In this document: positions 6,950 to 37,349 of the stretch, one piece after another
Numbering within the stretch: position 1 is the stretch's first letter
Layout: each line of letters begins with the position of its first letter
Origin: an uncultured Candidatus Saccharibacteria bacterium
GTDB lineage: Bacteria > Patescibacteriota > 4484-211 > JAGQKX01
Assembly: GCA_964392315.1 (NCBI GenBank)
Contig: CAYMOT010000001.1
Location: 202,403 to 266,402 of the forward strand
Direction: 5' to 3'
Length of the DNA stretch: 64,000 nucleotides
Program-made: the position numbers and the translations under genes
The notes under the pieces: generated by a model
The model's database searches: none
What the model saw: the letters and a program-made list of their open reading frames with translations, nothing else
Told to the model about the DNA's origin: nothing

Positions 6950-8452
6950 ATGTATCGAAGCAGATTCTTTCTTATCTTCCTCTTTTTGTGCAGCTTGGCA
7001 CTTTTTTTATACCCAGACATCGGTACAGACTCGGGTTGGCACCTCAGAGTAGGAGAATATATCGTTACACAGCATAAAATACCCTATACAGACTTTTTGT
7101 CATTCTCCATGGAAGGATATCCGTACGTATACCATAGTTGGTTTACCGAGGTTCTCTTGTTTTTGGCTTATACGGTTGCTGGATTGTGGGGGGTCTCGTT
7201 TTTGTACAGCTTACTGTTCACCTTTGCACTCTACTTTGTGACAAAGACAACACGCCTCTCCTTCAAAAAAGCGTTCATTATTTCACTTGCGTTTGCACCT
7301 GTTATTGTGGGGATTGTCGGTATTCGCACACAAGTAGCCACGTACTTACTTGCAACATTACTTTTACTCATTCTTGAGAGAGCCTCTTCGCTTGAATACC
7401 AAGGCCGTTCTTTTTTTAGATGGCTAACAATTACAAAATTCTGGGCAATCCCCATTATCTTCGTCATCTGGAGCAACGTGCACGGAGGATTTGTGCTCGG
7501 CTTAGTCCTTTTGAGCATATTCTTATTTGCCACAGTTTTTAGTGAATACCTTACTCGTAGAGACCTCAAGGCGGGTTTTTCCCGTTTACCTTTTTACTTC
7601 ACGCTCATTTTCATTTGTATTATCGTGACGGGATTAAACCCATACGGGTTCCGACAACTACAACAAGCTTTTGCGATGCAGACAAACACAACTGCACTTT
7701 CCCAAAACCTAGACTGGCACCCATTATTCCAAGTTCAAACCACTACATTTGCTCATTACTCCATAGATATTCTTGTGGTGGTGCTGGGCATTGCCTCTTT
7801 CATTGGAGCAAGATTGCGAAAAAAATCCCTCAAAGACCAACTTATGCTTGGTGTAATTCTTGTCTTATGCTTTGTAACAACACGATTTGCGCTTCTTCTC
7901 TTGATAGTCGCACTTCCAATCTTAGTCGAAGGGACAGCAAAAATGTTGCAAAGACTCAGAGATAACGGGTTTTTGTATTGGCTCACGCTTGGGTTTACCG
8001 TCACGATCATAAGTGCATCAGCACTTTTTCGTATTGACCAAGCACTCTGTGCAAATAAGTCAGAGTCTTGCTATGCTTGGCTCTCGCGGCTTTCAGCCAT
8101 TTCGGCACACTACCCTTACGATGCAATGGCGTATATGCGCACACATGGCGTGCCATCACGGTTGTTAAATAACTACAACCACGGTGGGTACTTACACTTT
8201 CACTTTCCGGGTCACCAATTCTATATTGATGGCCGTATGGATAATTTTTTTAATGAAGGGAATTCGTTTGTCGAAGAGTATTTACAGCTGATACATGCAA
8301 AAACCGGCTGGGAGGAAATATTTACTCAATATGACTTCAACGCCTACCTGGGAAAGCAATCATGGCTACTTAGTGCAGAACTTGTTAATCGTGGCTGGGT
8401 GCCCGTCGTAAAAGATGACGTAAACGTACTCCTATTGCCGCCTCATCCGTAA
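6950..8452 (+). CDS. Large polytopic membrane protein (500 aa), possibly GT-C-type glycosyltransferase-like. Function unknown.
   Basis: More than ten hydrophobic helices in the first ~330 aa, then a soluble C-terminal domain. The first extracytoplasmic loop has an acidic or His-containing motif (DSGWHLRVGEY). Start is 3 nt after the tsaD stop. Confidence 0.55.
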   Translation: MYRSRFFLIFLFLCSLALFLYPDIGTDSGWHLRVGEYIVTQHKIPYTDFLSFSMEGYPYVYHSWFTEVLLFLAYTVAGLWGVSFLYSLLFTFALYFVTKTTRLSFKKAFIISLAFAPVIVGIVGIRTQVATYLLATLLLLILERASSLEYQGRSFFRWLTITKFWAIPIIFVIWSNVHGGFVLGLVLLSIFLFATVFSEYLTRRDLKAGFSRLPFYFTLIFICIIVTGLNPYGFRQLQQAFAMQTNTTALSQNLDWHPLFQVQTTTFAHYSIDILVVVLGIASFIGARLRKKSLKDQLMLGVILVLCFVTTRFALLLLIVALPILVEGTAKMLQRLRDNGFLYWLTLGFTVTIISASALFRIDQALCANKSESCYAWLSRLSAISAHYPYDAMAYMRTHGVPSRLLNNYNHGGYLHFHFPGHQFYIDGRMDNFFNEGNSFVEEYLQLIHAKTGWEEIFTQYDFNAYLGKQSWLLSAELVNRGWVPVVKDDVNVLLLPPHP

Positions 8453-14089: not shown

Positions 14090-14842
14090 ATGGCACAAAC
14101 ACAAATTGACATTTCTGATTATGACCAGTCGGGTTACGATTATAGAGAGTATTGGCAGAATCGTCAATATGACAACCTAATCGAAAACCAAACCTTACAA
14201 AAACTACTGCCTGCGTTTAGCGAACGAATAATCGATATTGGGGGAGGTTTCGGCCGTCTTATAGACTTGTACAAAGACCGCGGGAAGCATATTACCATTC
14301 TTGACTATTCCAAAAGAAATCTCCAAAACGCACAAGCAAAAATTGAGACAATGCATTTGCATCACATTACTACGCAACAAGGAAATGTCTATGAACTGCC
14401 TTTTGCGGATAACCTGTTTGATGTTGCACTCGTAATTCGCGTAATCCATCACCTCGAGCGGCCCAGCCTCGCACTGCATGAAATAAACCGCATCCTCAGA
14501 CCAGGAGGAACATTAATATTACAGTTTAGTAACAAAATTCACCTAAAAAATAGACTCAAAGCACTCTTCTCACGGAAAAACTATTTGGTCGACAAAAAGC
14601 CGCTTAACCTCAGCGAAGACGGCATCTTCTACCAATTTCACCCAACCTACGTACAAGAAAAACTTAAGGAGAATGGTTTTGTCACGCGTACGCACCTATC
14701 CATTGCGCACCTGCGGATGCCTTTTCTTTATCGAATGATCCCTGCGCCTATCTTAGCGTATGCTGAACAGCTAATTGTACGTACCATCGGAAAAGCAAAC
14801 CTCGGCCCATCGGTTTTTATTGTTGCCGAGAAACGGAGATAG
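14090..14842 (+). CDS. Class I SAM-dependent methyltransferase.
   Basis: Motif I (IIDIGGGFGRL), motif post-I (ILDYS), and motif II/III (ALVIRVIHHL, LRPGGTLIL). Confidence 0.75.
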   Translation: MAQTQIDISDYDQSGYDYREYWQNRQYDNLIENQTLQKLLPAFSERIIDIGGGFGRLIDLYKDRGKHITILDYSKRNLQNAQAKIETMHLHHITTQQGNVYELPFADNLFDVALVIRVIHHLERPSLALHEINRILRPGGTLILQFSNKIHLKNRLKALFSRKNYLVDKKPLNLSEDGIFYQFHPTYVQEKLKENGFVTRTHLSIAHLRMPFLYRMIPAPILAYAEQLIVRTIGKANLGPSVFIVAEKRR

Positions 14843-17800
14843 AGAGGCTATTTCTATTACGTAAGGAAGTTACCCAGGAGACAACTTTTTGATCGTTTAT
14901 TTCAACACCAGGCGAAGCCTTCATAAAATCTAAATAGAACGGTAACTGCAAATCAAAACTAAATGGCTCATCAATAAGCCCGGGTTGACCATATACCGAC
15001 AATGAATACGTTGCATCATCGCCGAAAAACGCTGTCGTAGGCAGTTGATAAGTAAGCGAAACCGTGCGCTCAGACGAGAGCGGCACTTCTAGAAGGCCAA
15101 CTACTACCTGCCTGCCAAACTCGCTATATACTTGATACGTATCGGTAAATCCCGTTGCACTATTGACCGTCACCCCATCTGGAAGATACACCCGAAGATA
15201 ATCCTTATACAAGCCGTTAGGCCAAGTTTCAGATACACCTGTATGGGTAAATGTTATATCAAGCTTTGCACGCATTGCTTCATCACGGTCAACAAACACA
15301 GAGTACCTAGTTGCACGTTTCACCCAATGATTAGCTTTATTAATACCAACATTACTTGATACTACGGCGAGACTATCTCCGGGAACCTCGTCAAATACAC
15401 CAGCAAAAGATGCAGAGGCAATATCCGCCTGCCAATCCGGGCGTGTCGCATACATCAGGATTTGGCCAGTACCCAACTCATCAAACAGTGCTCGTGCAAG
15501 AGGAAAAAGCTTATCTTGTGCTACAGGAAAAAGGCGCAACCATAACTGTTGCGCTACTTCACCAATAAAATCCTTTTTCCCGGTTGAGCCAGGCTCAAAA
15601 CCCACCTCGCTTGCAGTTTGTGCCTTTTCAAACAATGTATCTGCAGTAACAAGTTCTTTGGTGACTGGCAGCTCTAGAGGACCAATAACCCGTAACACAT
15701 CTTCTATAGTTGTTAGATTTATTCCTACAATCCAGTCTGGAGTCACACCAGTAGCCTGTGGAAAGAGCTGAGCAAATCTTGATGCGCTGGTAGGAAAATC
15801 ATACCACCAGTTTGTATCACGCAAGGTAAGCTGGCCGCTGTTCAAATAGGTACGCACTCCATCCGGAGCAATATTAGTGGCAGGGTCTACTTTCAACTCA
15901 AGTTGGCCGTCAGGGTTATAGATATCGTCGACTTGTAAGCTACTAATGATCCCGTTCTCCATCGTCAGCAGTGCATAACTGCCAATAAATCCTCCAGTTG
16001 GACGTAGTTCACTGTTGTTTTGAAGCCATATCAACGCGGTACGGGATCCTTCGTATCCGAACCATCCAGGAAGGTATTGCCATGCATCCGCCTCAATATT
16101 TGTAACCTCCGAAAGCTGCCGAATGCGATCAGCATAGGACAGAAGAATTGATTGAGCAACCGGGAAATCTGCTAAAGCAGGTACGTTGGTTAATTCTTCT
16201 GCAATGGCTACATGTTGGCGAAATAGTCTCCACTCAGACTGGCTCTGGGCGATTCGTTCATCAGTCCGATTATCAGAAAATCGCGTTTCATCCTTGCCCG
16301 AAAGCGTAGGCCCCCACCACGGCTGGGTTGTCTCAATAAACGCAATACCATACTCAGATGCTTTTGCGACCTCTTGCCCAAGAACAGCCCAAGATTTTCC
16401 TGCGGCATGCATTTCTTGCTTCCCTAATAAGCCCCAAAACCAGCCTGTTCTCTTCCAGTAAGTACCTGCGTTCTCAAATGAGGTGCTTAACGCACGCATA
16501 TTGTCCTCAGCTTCATTATAGTTACCGGCAGCCAAGGCTGCTTTTGCTGATCGTACTTGCACAGTCCCAGAGAGGGCATAGAATGCTAACCCAACAAGCG
16601 GAACAAGAACATACCACACAAAGAGTACGGTACAGATCGCGATTAGTGCCTGCCGCACCCAATGAGGAGTGCGCTGTATTGCAGGAACAGACCGTGTAGA
16701 CAACGTACTTGCTTTTTGTTTAAGCGAAAGCCACCCACTAGCAGGCTGGACTTGCAACCTAGGTGGCGGACTTTCGAGCGCAGGCACCGTAGCCACCTCC
16801 TGAATGTCTTCTATAATATCGTGGAGGACGTCAGCTTCTACCTGCTCTTGCTCTGTACTCTCAGCCTTGGGAGGAGAAAGAGGTGACTCAAGCGGTGGTG
16901 TATCGATGTGCGTGTCTTTTTTTTTTGAGACATTCTCCTCTACCTCACCAGGCAGGACATGAAGAGTTGTAGCCGCAACGGGTTTTTTATCACTGAGCTT
17001 ATCAAGCGGTTGATGCTTCTTCCCTGACAAGAAATATACCATCGCTTTTTTTATACCTTCTTGCAAGGACACTTTTGCTTCCCAGTACAGCTCATTTCTA
17101 CTACGCGTTATGTCAATCACTGGTGTATGAAAAAGCGGATCCTTCACACGCGGTAAAAACTCTACCGATATGTCGTGTGGTGCATATTCTTTAATGGTTA
17201 AAACAATACTAAGAAGCGATACTGGCTCCTTATTCACGAGATAAAAAATCCCACCTTTAAGGGAGGTATCGTCTTGGACTATGAGCTTTTGAAGCCCATA
17301 CACCACATCTGAGTAAAATGTAGCGAAAATAGTTCTCGAGCCCACGTCATCAAGAATAAGGTTTTTGTTTTCAAGCGCCGCAGCTAATACCTTCGCAATA
17401 ATCGAATCCGCCTCCAAATTCATACGGGGACCATACACATCGGACAGACGCGCAACACGTATATCCATACCGTACAATGAGACGTACTCCTGACACAGCG
17501 CTTCTGCGTAACGCTTTGCTTCTGTAAGGGTCAAGACACCTCGTTGCTCGACGTTTTCATAGTAATGAGACAAATCAGCGTGCGAGGCAAGTCCTTGGTA
17601 TAAGTCAATGGTTGAAGTCAGAACAAAGCGAGATTTTGTTTTGAGGGCTAAATCGAGCAAGTTTTTCACACCAAAGGAGTTGGTCAAAAGCTCGTTGAGT
17701 TCAAGGCGTCGAGTTGCAGAAAACGCTTCTACATTTGCCACATGAACAATGGCGAGCCACTCTTCTTTTGATAAAGCGTCAGGGATTCTTTGGTTTATAT

Positions 17801-17975
17801 TTACCTCGATAAAATCAAACTGGGGGTCATCTAACAGACGCTCAACATTCTCACGTTTTCCGGTTGTCCAATTATCAATGCCAACCACTTTTAATCCTGA
17901 CGTGATAAGCGCTTCAGAAAGGTGTGATCCTAAAAATCCAGCGGCACCCGCTATGAGTACTTTTTTTTGTTTCAT
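14817..17975 (-). CDS. Fusion protein: N-terminal NAD-dependent sugar-nucleotide epimerase/dehydratase (SDR), a Pro/Ser/Glu-rich linker, one transmembrane helix, and a C-terminal extracytoplasmic DUF4012-like domain.
   Basis: N-terminus VLIAGAAGFLGSHL (Rossmann GxxGxxG) and a YxxxK-type SDR core. One transmembrane helix (ALIAICTVLFVWYVLVPLVGLAF). The C-terminal region contains LIWLQNNSELRPTGGFIGSYALL, which matches my recollection of the DUF4012 signature (...QNNAELRxTGG...G). Confidence 0.7.
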   Translation of the reverse strand: MKQKKVLIAGAAGFLGSHLSEALITSGLKVVGIDNWTTGKRENVERLLDDPQFDFIEVNINQRIPDALSKEEWLAIVHVANVEAFSATRRLELNELLTNSFGVKNLLDLALKTKSRFVLTSTIDLYQGLASHADLSHYYENVEQRGVLTLTEAKRYAEALCQEYVSLYGMDIRVARLSDVYGPRMNLEADSIIAKVLAAALENKNLILDDVGSRTIFATFYSDVVYGLQKLIVQDDTSLKGGIFYLVNKEPVSLLSIVLTIKEYAPHDISVEFLPRVKDPLFHTPVIDITRSRNELYWEAKVSLQEGIKKAMVYFLSGKKHQPLDKLSDKKPVAATTLHVLPGEVEENVSKKKDTHIDTPPLESPLSPPKAESTEQEQVEADVLHDIIEDIQEVATVPALESPPPRLQVQPASGWLSLKQKASTLSTRSVPAIQRTPHWVRQALIAICTVLFVWYVLVPLVGLAFYALSGTVQVRSAKAALAAGNYNEAEDNMRALSTSFENAGTYWKRTGWFWGLLGKQEMHAAGKSWAVLGQEVAKASEYGIAFIETTQPWWGPTLSGKDETRFSDNRTDERIAQSQSEWRLFRQHVAIAEELTNVPALADFPVAQSILLSYADRIRQLSEVTNIEADAWQYLPGWFGYEGSRTALIWLQNNSELRPTGGFIGSYALLTMENGIISSLQVDDIYNPDGQLELKVDPATNIAPDGVRTYLNSGQLTLRDTNWWYDFPTSASRFAQLFPQATGVTPDWIVGINLTTIEDVLRVIGPLELPVTKELVTADTLFEKAQTASEVGFEPGSTGKKDFIGEVAQQLWLRLFPVAQDKLFPLARALFDELGTGQILMYATRPDWQADIASASFAGVFDEVPGDSLAVVSSNVGINKANHWVKRATRYSVFVDRDEAMRAKLDITFTHTGVSETWPNGLYKDYLRVYLPDGVTVNSATGFTDTYQVYSEFGRQVVVGLLEVPLSSERTVSLTYQLPTTAFFGDDATYSLSVYGQPGLIDEPFSFDLQLPFYLDFMKASPGVEINDQKVVSWVTSLRNRNSLSISVSRQQ

Positions 17976-18009: not shown

Positions 18010-18633
18010 CTAATCTTCCGTCATGTATTGCTTAATTGCAACGGCTACTATCGCAACAAAGAATCCGACAAAAAGTCCAACCAGTGTATAGAGGAGAATA
18101 GGTGGTTTTTGCAAGATTACGAGCGGTTCGGTATTCACTCGTTTTACGGTTACATTACCGAAATCATGTTCCGCACTGAGCACTTGTTCTTCAACTGCCG
18201 AGAACAACCCCTGCACCACCTCAATGGCGTACACACTATCTGTCGCACGAACCGAAAGATCAACGAGTTGCGGTGCTATCTTTTCTACAGAGGTCTGCTT
18301 GTTAAGTTCTCGAATCTGTGAAATTGCGGAGTCTCTCTCGGTAAGTTCTAGTGCTCTATATGCCACTGTGCTGCTCTCAAAAAGACCCACCACCGTATCG
18401 GTAAATGCTTCTGCCGCCTGTTGGGCATAATATCCATCATAGGTGAAATCACCACTTGTAGGTTGCTCGGGGATTTTTTGCACGTAAATCGTGAGCAGTG
18501 CCTCAAATTTATCTGGTATGCGTTGGCTTACCCCTAACGCTACAGCTCCCCCCAAGACGGTCAAGCCCACCAGGACAACGATATTCTTTTGTAAAACGCG
18601 TAGATACTCTCGAAGTTCCATATTCTTAAACAC
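18010..18633 (-). CDS. Wzz/CpsC-like polysaccharide chain-length determinant (small form).
   Basis: Bitopic topology: N-terminal transmembrane helix (VVLVGLTVLGGAVALGV), an extracytoplasmic helical region, and a C-terminal transmembrane helix (LLYTLVGLFVGFFVAIVAVAI). This matches the YwqC/Wzz family. Confidence 0.5.
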   Translation of the reverse strand: MFKNMELREYLRVLQKNIVVLVGLTVLGGAVALGVSQRIPDKFEALLTIYVQKIPEQPTSGDFTYDGYYAQQAAEAFTDTVVGLFESSTVAYRALELTERDSAISQIRELNKQTSVEKIAPQLVDLSVRATDSVYAIEVVQGLFSAVEEQVLSAEHDFGNVTVKRVNTEPLVILQKPPILLYTLVGLFVGFFVAIVAVAIKQYMTED

Positions 18634-19042
18634 GCATGTGCATATCTAAAGCTTCATTCACTAAACGATCCGCAAGCGCATTTTTTGCACGCGGTATATG
18701 CTTGAATTCTAGCATAGGAGCTTGTACCCTTAAAGCAGATATTGCTTCATATTCTTTTTGGAGAGTGCTGTTCTTAACTCTATAGGCGCCTGCCAACTGT
18801 TTAACCACAAGCTCTGAATCCAAATAACATGTTATCTTCGTAGGACTATATGACAACGCACTAGTAAGTGCAGCCTTCAACGCCATGTATTCCGCCTCGT
18901 TATTTGTTTTACGTTCACCTATGAACGCAGCGTGAGTTTCCAAGGGGGTAGCAAGGTTATCTGCAGAATAAATTACAAAGCCTATTGCAGCCGGACCCGG
19001 ATTGCCACGCGCGCCTCCATCACTATAGGTAAGTATATGCAT
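18626..19042 (-). CDS. rnhA: Ribonuclease HI. Likely start is ATG at 19042; the track extends to 19081.
   Basis: MHILTYSDGGARGNPGPAAIGFVIY is the RNase H N-terminal DxG catalytic region. ...NNEAEYMALKAAL and the C-terminal RAKNALAD are also consistent. Confidence 0.8.
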   Translation of the reverse strand: MHILTYSDGGARGNPGPAAIGFVIYSADNLATPLETHAAFIGERKTNNEAEYMALKAALTSALSYSPTKITCYLDSELVVKQLAGAYRVKNSTLQKEYEAISALRVQAPMLEFKHIPRAKNALADRLVNEALDMHMRV

Positions 19043-19077
19043 AATAAATATTCCTACTACGAGTGTACACGGTAAAA

Positions 19078-20337
19078 TCAATCAGTGCTGGAGGGTAGTA
19101 CGGAAGCTCGTGATGTGTCATGTGCCGCTATTGCACATATGGTGAACCCTACAACAAGCCACACCATACCATTTCCTATAGAAAGGCTCCACCAGTAATG
19201 ATCAAATAGGCTCGTAACACTTATGACAATCCAGATGCCAATAATAAATACCTTCGACATGGAACGAGGCGTGTTCCAGATATCCCTCATCAAGAGCAGC
19301 CATCCACCGAGAAACCATATCCCCGCAACAATGCCTATTTCACTCATGACAAGAAGGGGGACATTGTGCACCGGCTGTAGAAGCAGTCTCTGTTCTGCGG
19401 TTCGGTAGGCCTTGAGCGCAACACTAAAATTACCATTACCGACACCGGTAAGCGGGTGCGTGTTTATGATTTGGATGCTCCTTTGTAGCAACTCTCTGCG
19501 CTCCGTAACAGAAGGGTCATTCGTTGAGAGCGTGAGTATATACGGAATAATTATGAGCAAGCTGAGTACAATACCCCCCAGGAATATTCGTGAGAAAGGA
19601 ATCGTCTTTCGTAATAATACAGCACACCAAAGCCCTGCAATAAAAACACCCAGCCATACAGACCGGGAAAAACTTATGATGACCAAAAGCCAAGATATTC
19701 CAAAACCAAGAAGTACACTACCGTTCTTACCCTTAAGGTATCGCCATGCAAACAGTAGTAGCCACACTGCCGCTACGCCCCCAAGTACATTTGGATGGGG
19801 GAACACAGCATACGGGCGCAAAAAAGTTTTTCCCAAAAAGGTGGCACGTGCAATTGCGGGAGTCACTACTGAGTAATCCCAATTCCCAAGGATCCAAACC
19901 CCTAGAGAGTGTCCAAACAAAACCTCAAATACCGCCAGTACTCCAACCGTGAAGCATCCCACAACCCATGCATACCACCACGTTGTGGTTATTTTGTGCG
20001 TTGTACTATACCAACCTACACACAGGGCAAAGAATGCATATACCGCGAGATTCACCGATCGAACTGTTGCAAGCAAGGGATCGAGTGCCATGACGACAGA
20101 GAGAAAAGAAAATGCAATAAGCCCCAGAATCCACCATAACTTCCACCCTAAACTCTTAACCCAAACGGCAAATTCTTGTCGGTGGTGGAGCAAAACTGCC
20201 ACACAAAACGCAACGACAACGATATCTCGTATATACAAAAAAAACATTTCATAATCGTTGGCATAGAACCGGCGACCCAACGGGATACGTGTTTGTAGAA
20301 AAAACACAAACGGAAGGAGAAAGAATAATTTTCTCAC
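19078..20337 (-). CDS. O-antigen ligase/polymerase (Wzy_C)-like polytopic membrane protein.
   Basis: About twelve transmembrane helices with a larger extracytoplasmic loop near the C-terminal third. Same operon as the Wzz-like and epimerase-DUF4012 genes. Confidence 0.55.
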   Translation of the reverse strand: MRKLFFLLPFVFFLQTRIPLGRRFYANDYEMFFLYIRDIVVVAFCVAVLLHHRQEFAVWVKSLGWKLWWILGLIAFSFLSVVMALDPLLATVRSVNLAVYAFFALCVGWYSTTHKITTTWWYAWVVGCFTVGVLAVFEVLFGHSLGVWILGNWDYSVVTPAIARATFLGKTFLRPYAVFPHPNVLGGVAAVWLLLFAWRYLKGKNGSVLLGFGISWLLVIISFSRSVWLGVFIAGLWCAVLLRKTIPFSRIFLGGIVLSLLIIIPYILTLSTNDPSVTERRELLQRSIQIINTHPLTGVGNGNFSVALKAYRTAEQRLLLQPVHNVPLLVMSEIGIVAGIWFLGGWLLLMRDIWNTPRSMSKVFIIGIWIVISVTSLFDHYWWSLSIGNGMVWLVVGFTICAIAAHDTSRASVLPSSTD

Positions 20338-21495: not shown

Positions 21496-21855
21496 TTATT
21501 CGTCTTGCATTCTAGCATATTCTACAAGTTTAGCTTTCTCTAATGCATTGGTAAGTACCGAAGTGACGTCAGTCGTTTGTTTTTGCAATAGATTTACCCG
21601 TGCAATAAGAACGATATCAAAACCACGTGCCACATTCGGCAATACTTCTCGTACCGCTTCTCTTAATACTCGTACTGCGCGATGTCGCTGTACCGCTCCA
21701 CCAACTTTGGCAGATGCAATAAAGCCAAACCGCAGCGAGTTCGCACTATTTGGCATATAGGTCAACACAAAGTACGGTGTATGTACGGTGGCTCCTTGTT
21801 TCTTTAGTTTTCTAAATATGTACTCATCGTGCAGGCGGTACTGTTTGGGAAGCAT
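21496..21855 (-). CDS. rnpA: Ribonuclease P protein component. The track start at 22014 over-extends into rpmH; ATG at 21855.
   Basis: LRFGFIASAKVGGAVQRHRAVRVLREAVRE is the RnpA RNR-motif region. Canonical rpmH-rnpA-yidC-jag order. Confidence 0.85.
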   Translation of the reverse strand: MLPKQYRLHDEYIFRKLKKQGATVHTPYFVLTYMPNSANSLRFGFIASAKVGGAVQRHRAVRVLREAVREVLPNVARGFDIVLIARVNLLQKQTTDVTSVLTNALEKAKLVEYARMQDE

Positions 21856-21961
21856 ATGCTGAAGAGCAATTAAAAGAAACAAATCAATTAAGCAACCACT
21901 TATATATCTTTGTCTCTTGTATGTACTGTAATTGTACGGTGAAACTAACGGGGTGTCACTA

Positions 21962-22114
21962 TTACGAACGTACGGAGACACTGAGCTGCTTTCGCCCTTT
22001 GTTCCTCCGCGCACTAAGAACTCGACGTCCTGCTGCAGAACGCATTCTTTTCAAAAATCCGTGTACTCGTAGTTTTCGTCTATTCTTTTTTCGAGCAAGG
22101 GTTCGTGCTGGCAT
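21962..22114 (-). CDS. rpmH: Ribosomal protein L34 (50 aa). Not in the supplied ORF track.
   Basis: My hand translation of the minus strand gives MPARTLARKKNRRKLRVHGFLKRMRSAAGRRVLSARRNKGRKQLSVSVRS. It has the L34 hallmark (RxHGFxxRM...GRxVLxxRRxKGRKxL). ATG at 22114-22112, TAA at 21964-21962. Confidence 0.8.
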   Translation of the reverse strand: MPARTLARKKNRRKLRVHGFLKRMRSAAGRRVLSARRNKGRKQLSVSVRS

Positions 22115-22174
22115 AACTGCGGCTAAGGATACCAAATTTTTTCATCAACCGCAACTGAAATAGTCTCTACTTTC

Positions 22175-23593
22175 TCAAGCATATAACTCCTTTCTAAAAG
22201 TCGTTACCGTCGATTGCAGTGCTTTGTCGCCTTGATCTATACGACTTCTTACTTGTTCAAATCCATGCATGATGGTTGTGTGATCTCGGCCTCCCAGGAG
22301 GCGTCCGATGTCTACATAACTCATCCCTAGCTCGTCTCTGAGCATGAACATGGCTACTTGCCGAGGGACCACTATTTCCTTTTTGCGCCGTTTACCACAG
22401 AGATCCTTCATCGTAACGCTATATGTATCCATGACCATTCCCAAAATGAGTTCCGGTGAAAGGCGCTTGCGAGACTCCTTTTCTCTTTGCTCAATTTGTC
22501 GCTCTCCCAAAAGGCTCTGCACCAGTTGCAAGTCAACTTCGTGGATATCACGCGCAACAAGTTCAGACTTTATTTTGAGCAATGTTCCTTCTATTTCACG
22601 AATATTGTTTTGAATAAGCTCAGCCATCATTTCAATGGCACGAGATGACATACTCATCCCAAGTTCTTGCGCCTTTGATTGAATAATAGCAAAGCGTGTC
22701 TCATAGTCCGGCTGATTTATATCCACCATAAGGCCGCCTTTAAATCGTGAGGACAGGCGCTCAGCCAGGTTTGCAATGTCATCGGGAAGCGTATCCGAAG
22801 CAAGAATAATCTGCTTTCCGCTTTGATATAAGTGATTAAAGGTATGATAGAACTCCTCTTGAATCCCTTCTTTTCCCCCTAAAAACTGAACATCATCAAC
22901 AAGTATACAATCAGCACTTCGGTATCGATTTCGAAACTCCATCATCTTTTTCTTTTGCACGAGGAATTCAACAAAATCATTCAAGAATCGCTCGCTCGTA
23001 AAATAAATCACCCGCATGTCAGGGTATTTCTCACGCAACCCATTCCCGATCGAATGCATGAGATGGGTTTTTCCAACGCCTGTTCCGCCATATATAAAAA
23101 GTGGATTATATGAGAGGCCGGGATTTTCTATAACCGCTTGTGCTGCTGCATACGCAACTCTATTGCTCGAGCCTACAACATACCGCTCGAGCGTGTATTG
23201 CGTGTTGAGTCGCTCGAGATTGAACGATTGGGAAATTCTTTCATTTAGAGATACTCCCTGTGTAGGAGTAAACGAGGCAACATTCCCTTGTCCAAACAAA
23301 GGTGCCTCTTCTGTCGTATTTACTTTTGGTGGAAGAATATCCCAATTGATACCAATAGTTCGTTTCGTAAGATGAAATAGTATTTGTTTCAGCAACTCTT
23401 CGCTATTCTTTTTTAGAAAATCTCGTGTGTATGTATGCTTACAACCAACAGTTAGGACGTCGTCTTCAATAGAAAGCCCTTCGGTATGTGCAAGCCATGC
23501 TTTTGTTGGGGCAGACTCTGTACGAACATCTACCTCATCTATAACTGCTTTCCACAATGATTTGGGATCAAGCATAGTGTTCATAATGTACAA
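22175..23593 (-). CDS. dnaA: Chromosomal replication initiator DnaA.
   Basis: AAA+ Walker A (GGTGVGKTHLMHSIGN), Walker B (ILVDDVQFL), sensor motifs, and the C-terminal domain IV DNA-binding helix (VVPRQVAMFMLRDELGMSYVDIGRLLGGRDHTTIMHG). Confidence 0.92.
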   Translation of the reverse strand: MYIMNTMLDPKSLWKAVIDEVDVRTESAPTKAWLAHTEGLSIEDDVLTVGCKHTYTRDFLKKNSEELLKQILFHLTKRTIGINWDILPPKVNTTEEAPLFGQGNVASFTPTQGVSLNERISQSFNLERLNTQYTLERYVVGSSNRVAYAAAQAVIENPGLSYNPLFIYGGTGVGKTHLMHSIGNGLREKYPDMRVIYFTSERFLNDFVEFLVQKKKMMEFRNRYRSADCILVDDVQFLGGKEGIQEEFYHTFNHLYQSGKQIILASDTLPDDIANLAERLSSRFKGGLMVDINQPDYETRFAIIQSKAQELGMSMSSRAIEMMAELIQNNIREIEGTLLKIKSELVARDIHEVDLQLVQSLLGERQIEQREKESRKRLSPELILGMVMDTYSVTMKDLCGKRRKKEIVVPRQVAMFMLRDELGMSYVDIGRLLGGRDHTTIMHGFEQVRSRIDQGDKALQSTVTTFRKELYA

Positions 23594-23918
23594 AGCACCT
23601 GCATAACTGTCAACGAATGATTCCTTTGTTCACAACAGCATTCACGTATTAGTGGATAACTTTACCTAGCATGTGTACAACTTATCGTAACGAGAACGTT
23701 AATGTGTATAACTTTTTATTAAATGTGTACTTATTAGTTGTACACATAGTTATGCTCTTTTTATTCTCAAGGAAAGGGGTACTACAAAGCCAAAAATTCC
23801 GCTTATTAACAAATAAACATCACTACTATGTACTGCTACTATTTCATAAAGAAGAGAAAGTAGATAATGTTGTATTCAGAAAATTATGAGTGGTTGTCTG
23901 AGGTGATTTATCTCCCAG
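23594..23918. promoter_or_regulatory. Putative replication origin (oriC): an AT-rich unwinding region with several DnaA-box-like 9-mers between the divergent dnaA and dnaN genes.
   Basis: 8/9 matches to TTATCCACA or its complement at 23650-23658 (aGTGGATAA) and 23703-23711 (TGTGtATAA). Weaker 7/9 matches near 23617, 23738 and 23862. The 23700-23900 stretch is strongly AT-rich. Confidence 0.55.
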
Positions 23919-25094
23919 ATGTTTCCAAAAGATGGTACACTTCATGTCATGAAGTTCATTACGCAGCAACAAAAACTTGAGCAGTTTATTGCATTAGCAC
24001 ATAAAGTAGCACCCTCCAGAACGACCTTACCCATATTGTCAAATGTATATATTGGAAGTGACAATGGGCGGTTAAAGATTGCAAGCACCAATCTGGAGGT
24101 ATCGTTTGCTGCGTGGCTCGGCGCGAGTATAGAGGAGGAAGGAGAAGTTACTGTATCTACAAATTTGCTCCATAATTATATACAAAATCTTGCACCAGAG
24201 AAGTTGACTTTGGCAACACAAGGAACAACGTTCCGTGTTATTGGTTCAACGACTGCTGCTGAATTTTTAACGATGCCCGCTCAAGAATTCCCTGAATTTC
24301 CGAGTGTACGAAGTTCGGTACTTCTTCGTCTTTCTCCGGGTCGATTACAGGAAATATTAAAAAAGGTCCTTTTTGCAGCAGCAACCTCAGATGCCCGGCC
24401 TGTCCTAACGGGTGTTTTGTTTCGGGGAACGCCAGAAGGGGTCATTATTGTAGCAACGGATGGATTTCGGCTTGCAGAAGTGACTGTCGATTGGAAAACA
24501 CTCTCTGCCGAGGCTCCTGAGGAGGCGTTTGAAATGATTATTCCCGCACGGATGCTTAAAGACATTGGCCAGTTTTCTGCAGATGCATCTTCTGACGGTT
24601 TGTGGGATGTGCGCCTTACCGAGGACAATAATCAAGTGGTATTTTCCTCTCCTGACGTGCAATTATTTGCTCGACGGATAGAAGCAGAATTTCCCCAGTA
24701 CGAAAATATCATTCCAAAAGAGCATAGTGTAACCATGACTGTTGAAAAGGAAGCGCTTATTCGCGCAATACGAACTGCTGCGCTTTTTGCACAATCCCAA
24801 AGCCATACCGTGCAACTGCAGATGAATACCGCAGACCAGACGGTTCGTGTTTTTGCAGAGAGTAAGGAATTGGGTAAGCAGGAGTCGACACTTCCAGTAA
24901 GCATGTCTGGTGAAACGATAACTGCGGGATTTAATGCAACATATCTTATTGATGCAGTATCAGCGTTTGATGGGGAGCAAATCGTCTTGCAGATGAAGAC
25001 GCCAGAAGCACCAGCGCTCTTTGTATCTCCTGGCGTAGATACACATATTCGGCAGGTTGTGATGCCTGTTCGCCTCGAACGCTCTACCTCATGA
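23919..25094 (+). CDS. dnaN: DNA polymerase III beta sliding clamp. An alternative ATG at 23949 gives the canonical MKF... N-terminus.
   Basis: Three-domain beta-clamp pattern. N-terminus MKFITQQQKLEQFIALAHKVAPSRTTLPILSNVYI. The C-terminal MPVRL motif is typical of DnaN. Confidence 0.88.
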   Translation: MFPKDGTLHVMKFITQQQKLEQFIALAHKVAPSRTTLPILSNVYIGSDNGRLKIASTNLEVSFAAWLGASIEEEGEVTVSTNLLHNYIQNLAPEKLTLATQGTTFRVIGSTTAAEFLTMPAQEFPEFPSVRSSVLLRLSPGRLQEILKKVLFAAATSDARPVLTGVLFRGTPEGVIIVATDGFRLAEVTVDWKTLSAEAPEEAFEMIIPARMLKDIGQFSADASSDGLWDVRLTEDNNQVVFSSPDVQLFARRIEAEFPQYENIIPKEHSVTMTVEKEALIRAIRTAALFAQSQSHTVQLQMNTADQTVRVFAESKELGKQESTLPVSMSGETITAGFNATYLIDAVSAFDGEQIVLQMKTPEAPALFVSPGVDTHIRQVVMPVRLERSTS

Positions 25095-26674: not shown

Positions 26675-27762
26675 TCACCAAGATCTCCTTAGAGAGCTTT
26701 AGAAATTTCACTAATTTTTCTGCTGAGTTAGGGCACACTACAGTGGCGCTTGGCCAAAACGCGGTAGGGAAAAGCACTATACTAGAAGCGATTGCGTTGT
26801 TTGGAGGATATCGATTTACCCGGTCGTTATCTGAACTTATTCAATGGGGGAAGCCTTTTGCACGTACAGATCTTGTAATACGTGATAGGGCATATTCTAG
26901 TATGCGCGTTGTCGTACGTCTACGAAACTTGTCTATTGTCGGAGATGATCAACTCATAAGCGTGAATGAAGGAGCAGCTTGTCTACCTATTGTCTACTTC
27001 TCGCCACGAACCGTAACTTTGCTGGAAGATTCGCCGTCATTGCGGAGACGTTTTTTTGATCATGTTTTGTCTACCATATCTCCTGAGTATCGGCATGCGC
27101 TTCGTGTATATCAGCACACGTTGCGGCAACGAAATGCGTCACTAAAACAATCAAGAGCGTCTCAGCATATGGTGTGGGAGGCAGCGCTCGCAGAGCATGG
27201 ATCGTATGTGCAGATTATGAGAAATTGGCTCGCACGAACGTTGAGCCAACAGTTAGAGTTTAATGGTGAACTTGTGTACCACATGAGCCCACAGAGTGGC
27301 CAGCCACTTTTGCCCCAGAGTGGTGATTGGGTAGATAATATTAAAACGCACAGGCAAAAACTACAAGAATTTTTAATTACTAAGTGGTCCGTGTTGCGGG
27401 AACGGGAAATGCACGTTGGATTTACACTGATGGGTGCACAACGTGATGACTGGTGGGTAACTACCGTAGAAGAGGAACGACAGATTAACCTGGGAACTTT
27501 TGGTTCTCGAGGCCAGCAACGTATGGCAATCGTCGCGCTTCAATTTGCGGTGCTTCGACTGTTAGAAGATCTGTTGGAGTATAGACCAATATGGTTATTG
27601 GACGATGTTTTTTCGGAACTAGATACGTTTCATCAAGAAAAAGTTATTGAGCGACTATCGCAGTATCAGACGGTTATCACGTCAGCGCATGAAGAATATC
27701 CGGGGATACACGCAGTTCGAGAGTTATCTGATGTACATACAATCAGGCTTGGAGATCATTGA
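26671..27762 (+). CDS. recF: DNA replication and repair protein RecF. ATG at 26671; the track starts at a GTG at 26641.
   Basis: MITKISLESFRNF N-terminus, Walker A (LGQNAVGKSTILEAI), SMC-like signature (LGTFGSRGQQRMAIVAL), and Walker B (IWLLDDVFSELD). Confidence 0.88.
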   Translation: MITKISLESFRNFTNFSAELGHTTVALGQNAVGKSTILEAIALFGGYRFTRSLSELIQWGKPFARTDLVIRDRAYSSMRVVVRLRNLSIVGDDQLISVNEGAACLPIVYFSPRTVTLLEDSPSLRRRFFDHVLSTISPEYRHALRVYQHTLRQRNASLKQSRASQHMVWEAALAEHGSYVQIMRNWLARTLSQQLEFNGELVYHMSPQSGQPLLPQSGDWVDNIKTHRQKLQEFLITKWSVLREREMHVGFTLMGAQRDDWWVTTVEEERQINLGTFGSRGQQRMAIVALQFAVLRLLEDLLEYRPIWLLDDVFSELDTFHQEKVIERLSQYQTVITSAHEEYPGIHAVRELSDVHTIRLGDH

Positions 27763-29975: not shown

Positions 29976-29980
29976 AAAAT

Positions 29981-30670
29981 TTAGCCAATGTTTGGCTTAA
30001 CAATTGTACTCGTGTAACCGAGGATATCATTCCGTAATGCGTCATTTTGTCCGCTCTCTGGGTTATAAATTTCGTAGAATAACCGTATAAGTTCTTCTGT
30101 CGTGAGTTGGCGCACACCTACTCCGAGTCTACGAAATTGCCAAAAAAGTTCCTTTGTTCGCTGTCCAAAGACCTGTTGTGCTTTTGCGAGGTCGTCATCG
30201 GAATAGGTAGTAACAACTTTTTCTTTTCCAATAAGCTTAAAAAGCGGATCGAGCAAACCCTGCGAGGCCTGTTCGGTCACCTTTTTTATATGTGGTACGA
30301 CTACATAGAATTTCTTAAAAAGAACCGTGTTTTCTGACACCAGCTCTTGGATAAAGGTAATATAGTTATCCAATTGCTGTCGCAAAATAGAAGTAGGTTG
30401 TAATCTTCGAAAAGACTTAAGATACTCAATATAATTTGTAATATCTACTTGGCGGGTGCGGATAACCACTTGCATAGGAAAGTCAAGCGAGTTGATGAGG
30501 TTCGCATAAGAATAAATAGCTGCGTCTTGCTCGGCTTCAGACAAGAGATCAAAGTTGATTGCCTGTGCTTCAATGACAATGCGAAATTTTCCTCCAGTGA
30601 GAATGAGTACATTGTCTTTTATATCTACGATATCAAGATGGTTTTGTGCCGTTCCAAGGACTCCAGACAT
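29981..30670 (-). CDS. Hypothetical cytoplasmic protein encoded immediately upstream of VirB4; part of the type IV secretion-like cluster.
   Basis: 229 aa with no transmembrane helix. Its stop is 6 nt from the VirB4 start. No family recognised by eye. Confidence 0.35.
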   Translation of the reverse strand: MSGVLGTAQNHLDIVDIKDNVLILTGGKFRIVIEAQAINFDLLSEAEQDAAIYSYANLINSLDFPMQVVIRTRQVDITNYIEYLKSFRRLQPTSILRQQLDNYITFIQELVSENTVLFKKFYVVVPHIKKVTEQASQGLLDPLFKLIGKEKVVTTYSDDDLAKAQQVFGQRTKELFWQFRRLGVGVRQLTTEELIRLFYEIYNPESGQNDALRNDILGYTSTIVKPNIG

Positions 30671-30672
30671 AA

Positions 30673-33738: not shown

Positions 33739-33742
33739 AGAT

Positions 33743-36403: not shown

Positions 36404-37349
36404 AAACAGTAACGTTCTCGTTCGAGAAGGTGTACATAGGTAGTGTTACATAATCAGCTGACTCTACATTATAGAAAAAATCATTTGCTATATAATAGCC
36501 TAGATTGGAAGAGGAAAATACCGTAGTAGGCGAATAATTGCCAGCTTGTCTTATTATGTCTCGAAGACGGACTCTTTTAGTAGCATCAGCATAATCAATA
36601 ATTTCAACTTGTTCACCTTTAGACAAGTCTATAAATGGATACCACAGTGAAGCACCGACAATATCTCCGTTAGCATGTACCATTACATATTGCTCGAAGG
36701 GCACATATAATTCTGCATTTCCAATTCTTGTGAGGATTTTTATAAACAATCGAGTTTTTTCGCTTATGTATGAAGATTCAGTTACGCTTTCTCCAGTTTC
36801 AGTATATAAAGTAATGTTTTTTTCATCCCATACATAGATTGGGTTATCGAAACCTATCTTTGAAACGAATTCCTTTGCTTTATTAAACGCTTCGGGGAGG
36901 GTAATTGTCTGTGTTGCTTGCGGGTAACCTTCTAGGGGAACAGAGTAAGTTAGTATACCTCCGGTTACATTGATACTTAATGAGTTACCGTTTTCGGTAT
37001 AAACATAGCCTTCATTAGTAAGCTGTGTACTTGCTTTGGAAGTAAAGCCAATATTAGATGCAATGTTTACTATTGCAGCCTGTGAAAATAACTTTTCAGG
37101 AGCCGAATATATTGGATATACTGTCACGGTATCTGGCGTTCTTATGGGATCATCAAATTCAAACTTGACATACTCTTCCTCGGACAATGCAAGTCTAATA
37201 TTTTCACCAACCCGGATAACCGAATTGTTTGAGGAGTCTACTCGTATAAGAATCAATATCACGCCAAGTACTATAACAGCAAGGATAAGTGCAATAATTA
37301 GAATCGTAACTCTTCGATGTAGCTGAAAATAATTTCGTATGGAGTTCAT
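36384..37349 (-). CDS. Bitopic membrane protein (N-terminal transmembrane helix plus a ~280 aa extracytoplasmic domain); possible VirB8-like component.
   Basis: Transmembrane helix (VTILIIALILAVIVLGVILILI). Soluble domain of the right size and topology for a VirB8/ConB analogue. Overlaps the upstream gene by 20 nt. Confidence 0.4.
   Translation of the reverse strand: MNSIRNYFQLHRRVTILIIALILAVIVLGVILILIRVDSSNNSVIRVGENIRLALSEEEYVKFEFDDPIRTPDTVTVYPIYSAPEKLFSQAAIVNIASNIGFTSKASTQLTNEGYVYTENGNSLSINVTGGILTYSVPLEGYPQATQTITLPEAFNKAKEFVSKIGFDNPIYVWDEKNITLYTETGESVTESSYISEKTRLFIKILTRIGNAELYVPFEQYVMVHANGDIVGASLWYPFIDLSKGEQVEIIDYADATKRVRLRDIIRQAGNYSPTTVFSSSNLGYYIANDFFYNVESADYVTLPMYTFSNENVTVYVSASK

What the first reader, a model, noticed from the sequence alone, without database searches (positions are those of the whole stretch)
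14817..17975. Fusion of a cytoplasmic NAD-dependent sugar epimerase/dehydratase to a transmembrane extracytoplasmic DUF4012-like domain
DUF4012 proteins, as I recall the family, are normally stand-alone N-terminally anchored extracytoplasmic proteins near cell-wall polysaccharide genes in Actinobacteria. Here the DUF4012-like region (LIWLQNNSELRPTGGFIGSYALL...) is fused to a full SDR-type epimerase (GAAGFLGSHL...) through a ~120 aa Pro/Glu-rich linker and one transmembrane helix. A single polypeptide therefore spans the membrane with a nucleotide-sugar-modifying enzyme inside and a polysaccharide-associated domain outside. It is operonic with Wzz-like (18010-18633) and Wzy-like (19078-20337) genes, and unusually also with rnhA, jag, yidC, rnpA, rpmH and dnaA.
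Basis: partly seen in the sequence, partly recalled or inferred. Interest (0 to 1): 0.6.

Follow-up and report, generated by a model that had tools for sequence, protein, structure and literature searches.

The report
Membrane-spanning SDR–DUF4012 envelope protein
A real, widely conserved membrane-spanning protein of CPR/Patescibacteria joins an inside sugar-nucleotide-enzyme look-alike that has lost its catalytic tyrosine to an outside domain whose predicted fold resembles the ligases that attach surface polysaccharides to Gram-positive cell walls.

Summary
Window 14817-17975 (-) is one uninterrupted 1052-aa ORF: an extended-SDR domain (aa 1-318), a low-complexity linker, one transmembrane helix (aa ~439-472) and a DUF4012-containing region. 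The identical protein lies on at least 24 contigs from independent assemblies. More than 100 protein clusters from Patescibacteria (WWE3, Daviesbacteria and others) share the architecture, so it is neither an artefact nor rare.

The interpretation needs two corrections. First, the SDR domain is UDP-xylose-synthase-like and is the best conserved part of the protein. It keeps GxxGxxG, D34 and the catalytic Lys, but the catalytic Tyr is Leu150 (Leu in 59 of 105 homologues, Tyr in 13). In some relatives the glycine motif has also decayed. It is therefore probably a ligand-binding or scaffold module, not a working epimerase. Second, a confident model (pLDDT 92-94) shows a helical stalk, an alpha/beta DUF4012 core and a beta-sandwich. 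The 28 best PDB matches of the core are all LytR-CpsA-Psr glycopolymer ligases (E down to 2e-5, TM 0.28-0.49). Sequence profiles do not confirm this link.

The RNase H / Wzz-like / fusion / L25 gene order is conserved across distant lineages. My best reading is an LCP-like late-step enzyme of a Wzy-type surface-glycan pathway.

The parts
14817..17975 (-). Whole ORF, 1052 aa: SDR - linker - TM - stalk - DUF4012 core - beta-sandwich
   Evidence: The identical protein is on at least 24 independent contigs. More than 100 homologous clusters have the same architecture.
17022..17975 (-). Cytoplasmic extended-SDR domain (aa 1-318), UDP-xylose-synthase-like. GxxGxxG, D34, T122 and K154 are kept; the catalytic Tyr is replaced by Leu150.
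   Evidence: Pfam PF01370/PF16363. Best PDB match by sequence is human UXS1 4gll, E 5e-38, and its alignment puts L150 opposite the catalytic Tyr. This is the most conserved region of the protein.
16662..17021 (-). Low-complexity P/L/K/S/E-rich linker (aa 319-438), poorly conserved
   Evidence: Composition. Identity to homologues is 0.28/0.21/0.16 for close, middle and distant relatives.
16560..16661 (-). Single transmembrane helix (aa ~439-472)
   Evidence: Kyte-Doolittle maximum 2.61, at the same position in homologues. Positive-inside statistics. The AF2 model has a long N-terminal helix.
16056..16559 (-). Extracytoplasmic helical stalk or bundle (aa 473-640)
   Evidence: AF2 model m3e5c239d83ed, helices H3-47 to H194-203, block-mean pLDDT 84-98. 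Sequence conservation is low.
15336..16055 (-). DUF4012 alpha/beta core (aa 641-880) with an LCP-like predicted fold. Residues invariant in the 146-sequence alignment: N653, E656, R658, G661, G662, F663, G859, N875, K880.
   Evidence: Pfam PF13196. Invariant columns. Domain model pLDDT 91.6. Foldseek top 28 PDB hits are all LCP enzymes.
14820..15335 (-). C-terminal beta-sandwich domain (aa 881-1052)
   Evidence: AF2 secondary structure. Weak Foldseek matches to M1 aminopeptidases and OST-complex subunits, which I take (not verified) to fall on this domain. No Pfam hit.
18010..18633 (-). Wzz-like short polysaccharide co-polymerase (about 203-207 aa, hydrophobic segments at both ends), 34 nt upstream of the fusion ORF
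   Evidence: PF02706, 28.6 bits against cut-off 25.5. Homologue adjacent to the fusion gene in L005, L006, L007, L010, L011 and L015.
18626..19081 (-). RNase HI (RVT_3/RNase_H type), conserved neighbour
   Evidence: Pfam and NCBIfam. Synteny.
19078..20337 (-). Wzy_C (O-antigen ligase/polymerase family) polytopic membrane protein
   Evidence: PF04932, E 3e-15. Conserved upstream in L005, L008 and L020.

Best explanation
The gene encodes a single-pass (N-in/C-out) envelope protein that is conserved in many CPR/Patescibacteria lineages.

Outside the membrane, a helical stalk holds the DUF4012 alpha/beta core away from the membrane, followed by a beta-sandwich. The core has a predicted LytR-CpsA-Psr-like fold and a cluster of invariant polar residues (N653, E656, R658, N875, K880). 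I infer that it acts at a late extracytoplasmic step of a Wzx/Wzy-type surface-glycopolymer pathway, together with the adjacent Wzz-like co-polymerase and the Wzy_C protein. Most likely it takes the polyprenyl-diphosphate-linked polymer and transfers it to a wall acceptor, as LCP ligases do.

Inside, the UXS-like SDR domain is under strong purifying selection and keeps the dinucleotide-binding motif, but it lacks the catalytic tyrosine. I infer that it no longer performs the canonical SDR redox chemistry. It would instead serve as a nucleotide or nucleotide-sugar binding module, or as a docking module, that ties the outside enzyme to the cytoplasmic side of the pathway.

Shown: the architecture, the conservation, the loss of Tyr, the fold resemblance and the synteny. 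Inferred: the ligase chemistry, ligand binding and any coupling across the membrane.
For: Architecture:
- ORF and domains.
- TM helix and topology.
- Real and conserved.

SDR domain:
- The closest solved relative is hUXS1. Tyr147 aligns with Leu150; T122 and K154 are kept.
- Family counts at the Tyr position are L59/Y13/H9/F6, while G10, G13, G16, D34 and K154 are each kept in at least 90%.
- The SDR is the most conserved region: identity 0.65/0.42/0.37 against 0.50/0.40/0.34 for the core.
- Ten proteins annotated with PF13196 only still match the family's SDR HMM (E 6e-32 to 3e-5), with GxxGxxG lost. Several PF01370-annotated members have also lost it.
- hUXS1 Y147F is nearly dead.

Ectodomain:
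- The models are confident: pLDDT 94 with pTM 0.92, and pLDDT 91.6 with pTM 0.89.
- With the core alone, the 28 best Foldseek PDB hits are all LCP enzymes (LytR, Cps2A, TagT/U/V, LcpA, MsrR, BrpA). E runs from 2e-5 to 9e-3, and probability is 1.00 for the best 19.
- Invariant polar residues point to an active site.
- LCPs likewise have an N-terminal TM anchor, an optional accessory domain and an extracellular catalytic core (PMC7831098).

Context:
- Wzz-like and Wzy_C genes are adjacent.
- Wzx is added in Daviesbacteria locus L008.
- In B. longum, DUF4012 also sits next to wzz in an EPS cluster.
Against: - TM-scores to LCP structures are only 0.28-0.49, with rmsd 6-14 A and 10-14% identity.
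- No sequence method links the families. Pfam gives no PF03816 hit even at E<=10. An HMM of the family finds no LCP chain in the PDB. hhalign of the DUF4012 core against a 155-sequence LCP profile gives P 0.014 and probability 3%.
- I could not superpose coordinates. It is therefore untested whether the invariant residues coincide with the LCP Arg/Asp-Mg2+ pyrophosphate site, or whether a lipid tunnel exists.
- DUF4012 has fewer invariant arginines (R658, R719) than LCPs.
- Thirteen of 105 homologues do keep the Tyr, so some family members could be active enzymes. A slow or non-canonical activity of the Leu150 protein is not excluded.
- No priming transferase or glycosyltransferase genes lie next to the locus.
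Confidence: 0.45

Rival explanations
1. The protein is a true bifunctional enzyme: an active NAD-dependent epimerase, dehydratase or decarboxylase makes a nucleotide sugar at the membrane for the pathway served by the outside domain.
For: - Full-length SDR fold with GxxGxxG, D34, T122 and K154.
- Very strong conservation of the domain.
- Thirteen of 105 homologues retain Tyr.
- hUXS1 Y147F still slowly forms UDP-4-keto-pentose, so a residual or altered reaction is conceivable.
Against: - The catalytic Tyr is Leu in this protein and in most of the family; His, Phe, Val, Ala, Met and Asn are also tolerated there.
- The glycine-rich cofactor loop is lost in several lineages that keep the domain.
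- No compensating conserved Tyr specific to the family was seen. The conserved Y126 and Y138 also align with Tyr in hUXS1.
Confidence: 0.15
2. The DUF4012 ectodomain is not an enzyme. It is a structural or auxiliary partner of the Wzz-like co-polymerase and the Wzy_C protein, acting in chain-length control, in export through the wall or as an assembly scaffold. The resemblance to LCP is only a shared alpha/beta topology.
For: - Persistent adjacency to a Wzz-like gene from CPR to Bifidobacterium.
- The long helical stalk is reminiscent of co-polymerase ectodomains.
- Modest TM-scores and no profile-level homology to LCP.
- B. longum annotators called it an 'auxiliary protein'.
Against: - Invariant polar residues (N, E, R, N, K and near-invariant Asp residues) across very divergent sequences are more typical of a catalytic or ligand site than of a scaffold.
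- The best 28 structural hits belong to one enzyme family only.
Confidence: 0.25
3. The ectodomain is an enzyme of a different kind that acts on the same substrates. It could be a polyprenyl-diphosphate pyrophosphatase or recycling enzyme, or a glycan-modifying or glycan-cleaving enzyme.
For: - LCP proteins themselves show pyrophosphatase activity in vitro (PMC7831098).
- The invariant acidic, amide and basic residues fit many hydrolytic sites.
- The C-terminal beta-sandwich could be a carbohydrate-binding module.
Against: There is no similarity to any hydrolase family in Pfam or by PDB sequence search. The structural matches are to transferases of the LCP family.
Confidence: 0.1
4. The fusion is an assembly or annotation artefact: a frameshift, a mis-join or two genes read as one.
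For: None found.
Against: - The ORF is uninterrupted.
- The identical protein occurs on at least 24 contigs from different runs.
- Homologues down to 27% identity have the same ~1000-aa architecture.
Confidence: 0.01

Closest known systems
LytR-CpsA-Psr (LCP) glycopolymer ligases (Cps2A, TagT/U/V, LcpA, MsrR; PF03816)
   Same: - Membrane anchor, then an accessory region, then an extracytoplasmic alpha/beta catalytic core.
- The predicted core fold retrieves only LCP structures as its best 28 PDB hits.
- The gene sits next to a Wzz/CpsC-type co-polymerase gene. By my own recollection, cpsA sits close to cpsC in streptococcal capsule loci in the same way.
   Different: - No detectable sequence homology, and TM-score below 0.5.
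- A different invariant motif: QNNxExRPTGGF, with far fewer conserved arginines.
- Extra helical stalk and beta-sandwich.
- A large cytoplasmic SDR domain that no characterised LCP has.
UDP-xylose synthase / UDP-glucuronate decarboxylase (hUXS1, PDB 4gll/2b69) and other extended SDRs
   Same: - Best sequence match, E 5e-38 over aa 3-316.
- Rossmann motif, D34, Thr of the triad, Lys of the triad and the VYGPRM motif are conserved.
   Different: - The catalytic Tyr147 equivalent is Leu150, and Glu120 is Asp124.
- The domain is tethered to the membrane as the N-terminal domain of a 1052-aa protein.
- The cofactor motif has decayed in sister lineages.
Stand-alone DUF4012 proteins (for example B. 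longum 105-A BL105A_0406 in the EPS cluster; CPR family fam000574 of Meheust et al. 2019)
   Same: - Same Pfam family and invariant motif.
- TM-anchored.
- Next to wzz and polysaccharide genes.
   Different: These have a short, low-complexity or unannotated cytoplasmic N-terminus instead of a well-preserved SDR domain.
Atypical, non-catalytic SDRs such as NmrA (from my own knowledge, not tested here)
   Same: A Rossmann-fold SDR that lacks the catalytic Tyr and acts through dinucleotide binding rather than catalysis.
   Different: There is no sequence relationship beyond the superfamily. Those proteins are soluble regulators, not membrane-tethered domains.

Membership tests
Extended SDR / NAD-dependent epimerase-dehydratase (PF01370) | Profile match above the curated threshold over the whole domain | tested here: met
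   PF01370 scores 83.3 bits (cut-off 20.9) over aa 6-242. PF16363 scores 76.6 bits (cut-off 27) over aa 7-310.
Extended SDR / NAD-dependent epimerase-dehydratase (PF01370) | N-terminal GxxGxxG dinucleotide-binding motif and an acidic residue after beta2 | tested here: met
   The motif is GAAGFLGSHL, followed by D34. G10, G13, G16 and D34 are each kept in at least 92% of 105 homologues.
Extended SDR / NAD-dependent epimerase-dehydratase (PF01370) | Catalytic Ser/Thr - Tyr - Lys triad (YxxxK) | tested here: not met
   T122 and K154 are present, but the Tyr position is Leu150 in the alignment to hUXS1. Across the family the position is L59/Y13/H9/F6.
UDP-xylose synthase subgroup | UXS-specific Glu120 and Arg277 (PMC3438964) | tested here: inconclusive
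   The Glu120 position is Asp124 (Asp in 76 of 105 homologues). The Arg277 equivalent could not be assigned reliably from the alignment.
Extended SDR | NAD(P)-dependent turnover of a nucleotide sugar | not testable with these tools
   This needs a biochemical assay.
DUF4012 (PF13196) | Profile match above the curated threshold, and the family's invariant motif | tested here: met
   87.1 bits (cut-off 28) over aa 642-782. N653, E656, R658, G661, G662 and F663 are invariant in the 146-sequence alignment.
DUF4012 (PF13196) | Membrane anchor N-terminal to the domain, with the domain extracytoplasmic | tested here: met
   One TM helix lies about 200 aa upstream of the motif, in both fused and unfused members. 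Positive-inside bias supports the orientation. This is prediction only.
LCP (LytR-CpsA-Psr, PF03816) | Sequence or profile homology to the LCP domain | tested here: not met
   No PF03816 hit at E<=10. No LCP chain was found by the family HMM in the PDB. hhalign gives P 0.014 and probability 3%.
LCP (LytR-CpsA-Psr, PF03816) | Alpha-beta-alpha catalytic core fold as in Cps2A, TagT and LcpA | tested here: inconclusive
LCP (LytR-CpsA-Psr, PF03816) | Conserved Arg cluster and Asp-Mg2+ site for the pyrophosphate, and a hydrophobic polyprenyl tunnel (PMC7831098) | not testable with these tools
Only the existence of invariant polar residues is shown.
LCP (LytR-CpsA-Psr, PF03816) | N-terminal TM anchor with an extracellular catalytic domain, and linkage to glycopolymer genes | tested here: met
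   Topology. Adjacent Wzz-like and Wzy_C genes. Wzx in L008. Synteny.

The most novel reading that the evidence does not exclude
DUF4012 is a previously unrecognised, highly divergent branch of the LCP glycopolymer-ligase fold. It would be the (or a) cell-wall polysaccharide ligase of CPR bacteria, and an additional one in Actinobacteria and other monoderms. In CPR it has been wired to a catalytically dead, UXS-derived sensor domain. Binding of NAD(H) or a UDP-sugar in the cytoplasm would then gate polymer attachment outside the cell through a single transmembrane helix.
Probability: 0.2. Interest if true: 0.75.

Novelty: new variant of a known kind. Interest (0 to 1): 0.5.

Why it matters
CPR/Patescibacteria make up a large share of bacterial diversity, are mostly uncultivated, and have an envelope biochemistry that is almost unknown.

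DUF4012 is one of the few families that mark CPR together with Gram-positive bacteria (PMC6744442), and it has no assigned function. A structural link to LCP ligases gives it a concrete, testable biochemical hypothesis. That hypothesis can be tested in cultivable hosts such as Bifidobacterium.

The Tyr-less but strongly conserved SDR domain is a candidate pseudoenzyme attached to an envelope enzyme. That would be an unusual way to connect cytoplasmic nucleotide-sugar or redox state to wall assembly.

If the domain is only a scaffold and the ectodomain only an accessory factor, the finding is an ordinary, already catalogued domain architecture.

Tried and rejected
- Frameshift or mis-join: rejected.
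- PDB sequence search with the C-terminal 615 aa: no hit at E<=1.
- Pfam at E<=10 on the stalk, core and beta-sandwich separately: only DUF4012, plus one insignificant hit to DUF4363.
- HMM of the family against PDB sequences: only coiled-coil and designed-helix noise from the stalk.
- Foldseek with the whole 617-aa ectodomain model: only weak partial hits (TMq<=0.22). These were 4g2a, M1 aminopeptidases, OST subunits and two LCPs. I therefore modelled the core alone.
- hhalign of the DUF4012 core against LCP profiles, first 5 sequences and then 155: P 0.003-0.014 and probability 3-10%. The aligned stretch was plausible (VDGVIAI..LL.VTGPI against VDYYV.VNM.GF..LVDA.GGV) but not significant. 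The N-terminal beta-meander alone gave nothing.
- The third homology search, seeded with TagU, returned only close TagU orthologues. The representative search was needed to get diverse LCPs.
- The genome-contig scan was swamped by its Rossmann-motif pattern and gave only 11 loci.
- The promoter/terminator scan gave promoter-like sites at the chance level and a modest, uninterpreted excess of terminator-like sites.
- A motif grep for a canonical LCP in the window and fetched loci found none. A Pfam scan of 20 further large window ORFs, at an E<=1e-5 reporting limit, also found none. This covers 64 kb only and says nothing about the rest of the genome.

Full report
**Observation**

Window 14817..17975 on the minus strand is a single ATG-to-stop ORF of 1052 codons. 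Pfam finds two regions:
- An extended-SDR domain: PF01370 over aa 6-242 (83.3 bits, cut-off 20.9), and PF16363 over aa 7-310.
- DUF4012: PF13196 over aa 642-782 (87.1 bits, cut-off 28).

Between them lie a P/L/K/S/E-rich stretch (aa 319-436) and one strongly hydrophobic segment at aa ~439-472, with a Kyte-Doolittle 19-mer maximum of 2.61. It is the only segment above 1.6 in the protein.

The genes upstream on the same strand are separated by gaps or overlaps of at most 37 nt:
- a Wzz-like protein of about 205 aa (18010-18633; PF02706 above threshold);
- an RNase HI (18626-19081);
- a Wzy_C membrane protein (19078-20337);
- then jag, yidC, rnpA, probably rpmH, and dnaA.

**Is the fusion real?**

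The identical 1052-aa product is encoded on at least 24 contigs assembled from different sequencing runs, always with the same neighbours. A search of 5.8 billion proteins returned 120 hits. About 100 of them are 900-1100 aa long and carry both PF01370 and PF13196, at 27-56% identity over 96-100% of the query. Source names include candidate division WWE3, Daviesbacteria and 'Patescibacteria group bacterium', and some have NCBI nr or UniRef entries. A frameshift or mis-join is excluded. The architecture is common in these lineages and already sits in public databases under generic names. In the searchable literature only three papers mention DUF4012, and none discusses the fusion.

**Topology**

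All homologues have the hydrophobic helix at the equivalent place. Across 101 of them, the 15 residues on the SDR side carry on average 3.9 K+R (net +3.1). The 15 residues on the DUF4012 side carry 2.6 (net +0.8). The N side is richer in 66% of sequences and poorer in 14%. DUF4012 proteins without an SDR have their anchor about 200 residues before the motif as well. N-in/C-out is the supported prediction.

**The cytoplasmic domain is not a standard enzyme**

- *Closest solved relative.* This is human UDP-xylose synthase (4gll, E 5e-38). In that alignment the triad Thr is kept (T122), the Lys is kept (K154), Glu120 is Asp124, and the catalytic base Tyr147 is replaced by Leu150.
- *Family counts.* In an alignment of 105 fusion proteins the Tyr column reads Leu 59, Tyr 13, His 9, Phe 6, Val 4, Ala 3, Met 2, Asn 2. 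By contrast G10, G13, G16, D34 and K154 are each kept in at least 90%.
- *Effect of losing the Tyr.* In hUXS1 the Y147F mutant has a kcat of 1.3e-4 s-1 against 0.2 s-1 for wild type, and it cannot form UDP-xylose (PMC3438964).
- *Conservation.* The SDR domain is nevertheless the best conserved region of the whole protein. Mean identity to close, middle and distant homologues is 0.65/0.42/0.37. The DUF4012 core gives 0.50/0.40/0.34 and the linker 0.28/0.21/0.16.
- *Decay in sister lineages.* Ten proteins that Pfam labels DUF4012-only still match an HMM of the family's SDR domain (E 6e-32 to 3e-5). They have lost the glycine-rich loop, for example 'VIYSREGFISSYL' and 'LIIGGNNLINNFL'. Several PF01370-positive members have lost it too. 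Moranbacteria-type members have a K/N/S/Q-rich tail instead.
- *Reading.* The fold is retained under selection while catalytic and then cofactor motifs are dispensable. That pattern is what one expects of a domain whose job is binding or docking, not catalysis. In the window protein, which keeps the full Rossmann signature, dinucleotide binding is likely. This is inference.

**The extracytoplasmic region**

There is no sequence relative in the PDB. An AlphaFold2 model of aa 436-1052, built on 104 sequences, is confident (pLDDT 94.0, pTM 0.92). It shows the TM helix continuing into a helical bundle of about 200 residues, then an alpha/beta domain that contains the Pfam DUF4012 segment, then a beta-sandwich.

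Foldseek with the whole model gave only weak partial hits, among them two LCP proteins. I therefore modelled the core alone (aa 636-890; pLDDT 91.6, pTM 0.89). Its 28 best PDB matches are all LytR-CpsA-Psr enzymes, with no other family among them:
- S. dysgalactiae LytR, S. pneumoniae Cps2A with octaprenyl-pyrophosphate, and B. subtilis TagT/TagU/TagV;
- S. aureus LcpA, S. mutans BrpA and S. pneumoniae MsrR;
- the structural-genomics LCPs.

The E-values run from 2e-5 to 9e-3 and the TM-scores from 0.28 to 0.49, at 10-14% identity. A. oris LcpA and a further TagT entry follow at ranks 32 and 34. LCP structures are a tiny fraction of 350,542 chains, so this exclusivity is not chance. The TM-scores are nevertheless below the usual same-fold mark.

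Sequence-level tests do not confirm homology:
- There is no PF03816 hit at E<=10.
- The family HMM finds no LCP chain in the PDB.
- hhalign against a 155-sequence LCP profile gives P 0.014 and probability 3%. I built that profile from TagU, its 50%-cluster representatives and PDB fragments. The aligned segment pairs the DUF4012 'VDGVIAI...LL.VTGPI' with the LCP 'VDYYV.VNM.GF..LVDA.GGV'.

**Context**

Local tblastn of the window's proteins against all fetched loci shows the following:
- RNase H, the Wzz-like gene and the SDR-DUF4012 gene are adjacent in L005, L006, L007 (WWE3), L010 and L011 (WWE3). The Wzz-like gene is also adjacent in the short contig L015.
- In L007, L010, L011 and L015 the upstream gene or genes are divergently transcribed.
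- L25 lies downstream in seven loci.
- yidC-jag-Wzy_C lies upstream in L005, L008 (Daviesbacteria, which adds a Wzx flippase) and L020.

The 'odd' company of housekeeping genes is therefore an old, conserved CPR gene order rather than a peculiarity of this genome. It cannot by itself be read as functional coupling. The recurring partners that make biochemical sense are the Wzz-like co-polymerase and Wzy_C. In Bifidobacterium longum 105-A the DUF4012 gene also lies between the priming transferase and wzz in the EPS cluster (PMC5412050). LCP proteins have the same layout of TM anchor, optional accessory domain and extracellular core (PMC7831098). By my own recollection, cpsA lies close to cpsC in streptococcal capsule loci.

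**Mechanism proposed**

- *Step 1 (inferred).* Lipid-linked repeat units are flipped by Wzx, which lies elsewhere in this genome and is present in L008. They are then polymerised or ligated by the Wzy_C protein under control of the Wzz-like protein.
- *Step 2 (inferred from fold and context).* The DUF4012 core, held off the membrane by its helical stalk, binds the polyprenyl-diphosphate-linked polymer and transfers it to a wall acceptor. The beta-sandwich possibly contacts glycan.
- *Step 3 (inferred from conservation).* The cytoplasmic Tyr-less SDR binds a dinucleotide or nucleotide sugar, or docks cytoplasmic partners. It thereby localises or regulates the protein.

My confidence is about 0.95 in the architecture and topology and about 0.7 in 'not a canonical SDR enzyme'. 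It is about 0.35-0.4 in LCP-like transferase chemistry, and lower for trans-membrane regulation.

**Rivals**

- An active membrane-tethered epimerase or decarboxylase (0.15). This is disfavoured by the variable Tyr column and the decayed cofactor loops.
- A non-enzymatic partner of Wzz/Wzy (0.25). This is disfavoured by the invariant polar residues and the one-family structural hit list, but it is not excluded.
- Another enzyme type, such as a pyrophosphatase or glycanase (0.1).
- An artefact (0.01).

**Novelty and score**

The domain combination is catalogued but uncharacterised. Two things appear to be absent from the searchable literature: the loss and decay of SDR catalytic motifs under strong conservation, and the LCP-like fold of DUF4012. 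I rate the finding a new variant of a known kind, with interest 0.5. It gives a testable function for a family that marks CPR and Gram-positive envelopes, but the key link rests on a moderate structural similarity.

Noticed in passing
window 18010-19081; loci L005-L008, L010, L011, L015, L020: An RNase HI gene (RVT_3/RNase_H type) travels with the Wzz-like gene and the (SDR-)DUF4012 gene across very distant CPR lineages, sometimes as a divergent pair. Ribosomal protein L25 lies downstream in seven loci. Why RNase H is kept with envelope genes is unexplained.
   Followed up: partly
window 21496-25094: dnaA (minus strand, 22175-23593) is divergent from dnaN (plus strand, 23919-25094). On its own strand dnaA is followed by rpmH-rnpA-yidC-jag. 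The cumulative GC skew has its minimum near 24 kb, so the origin is probably in the 325-nt dnaA-dnaN spacer. Only two near-consensus DnaA boxes (23651, 23703) were found there.
   Followed up: partly
proteins P0122, P0124-P0128, P0130, P0131, P0133, P0135, P0136, P0141, P0142, P0145, P0150; locus L020 5618-8359: Relatives show graded decay of the N-terminal SDR domain. The glycine-rich NAD loop is lost while the 'VYGPxM' and 'SD..xGL' remnants and the fold signal persist (family SDR HMM E 6e-32 to 3e-5 for those Pfam labels DUF4012-only). Moranbacteria-type members instead have K/N/S/Q-rich low-complexity N-termini.
   Followed up: yes
window 45396-51090 (-): Three consecutive large polytopic membrane proteins have GT-C-type signatures: DUF2298 (E 6e-107), PMT_2 and PMT. 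This may be another envelope glycosylation module.
   Followed up: no
window 27756-31932 (-); locus L007 11175-15896: A TraG-like P-loop ATPase (27756-29975) lies near a CarboxypepD_reg-domain protein (30673-31932). In WWE3 locus L007 a PrgI-like/TraC-like/TraG-like trio lies immediately downstream of the fusion gene.
   Followed up: no
window 39647-44047, 37352-39640, 36384-37349, 32677-33981, 6950-8452: Several large ORFs (1466, 762, 321, 434 and 500 aa) have no Pfam match at E<=1e-5. They sit next to a GH5 cellulase-domain protein of 886 aa (33743-36403).
   Followed up: no
window 14817-14842: The 3' end of the fusion ORF overlaps by 26 nt, convergently, with the 3' end of a class I SAM methyltransferase gene (14090-14842, +). 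The same arrangement is found in locus L005.
   Followed up: no
window 59037-59447 and 61882-61969: A tmRNA gene (79.7 bits) and one tRNA are the only Rfam matches at gathering threshold in the 64-kb window.
   Followed up: no
model m3e5c239d83ed (aa 436-1052): The best whole-model Foldseek hit was 4g2a (Legionella lpg2210, 'putative nutrient binding protein', E 3e-5, TMt 0.37). It disappears when the DUF4012 core is searched alone, so it must match the stalk or the beta-sandwich. I did not resolve which.
   Followed up: no
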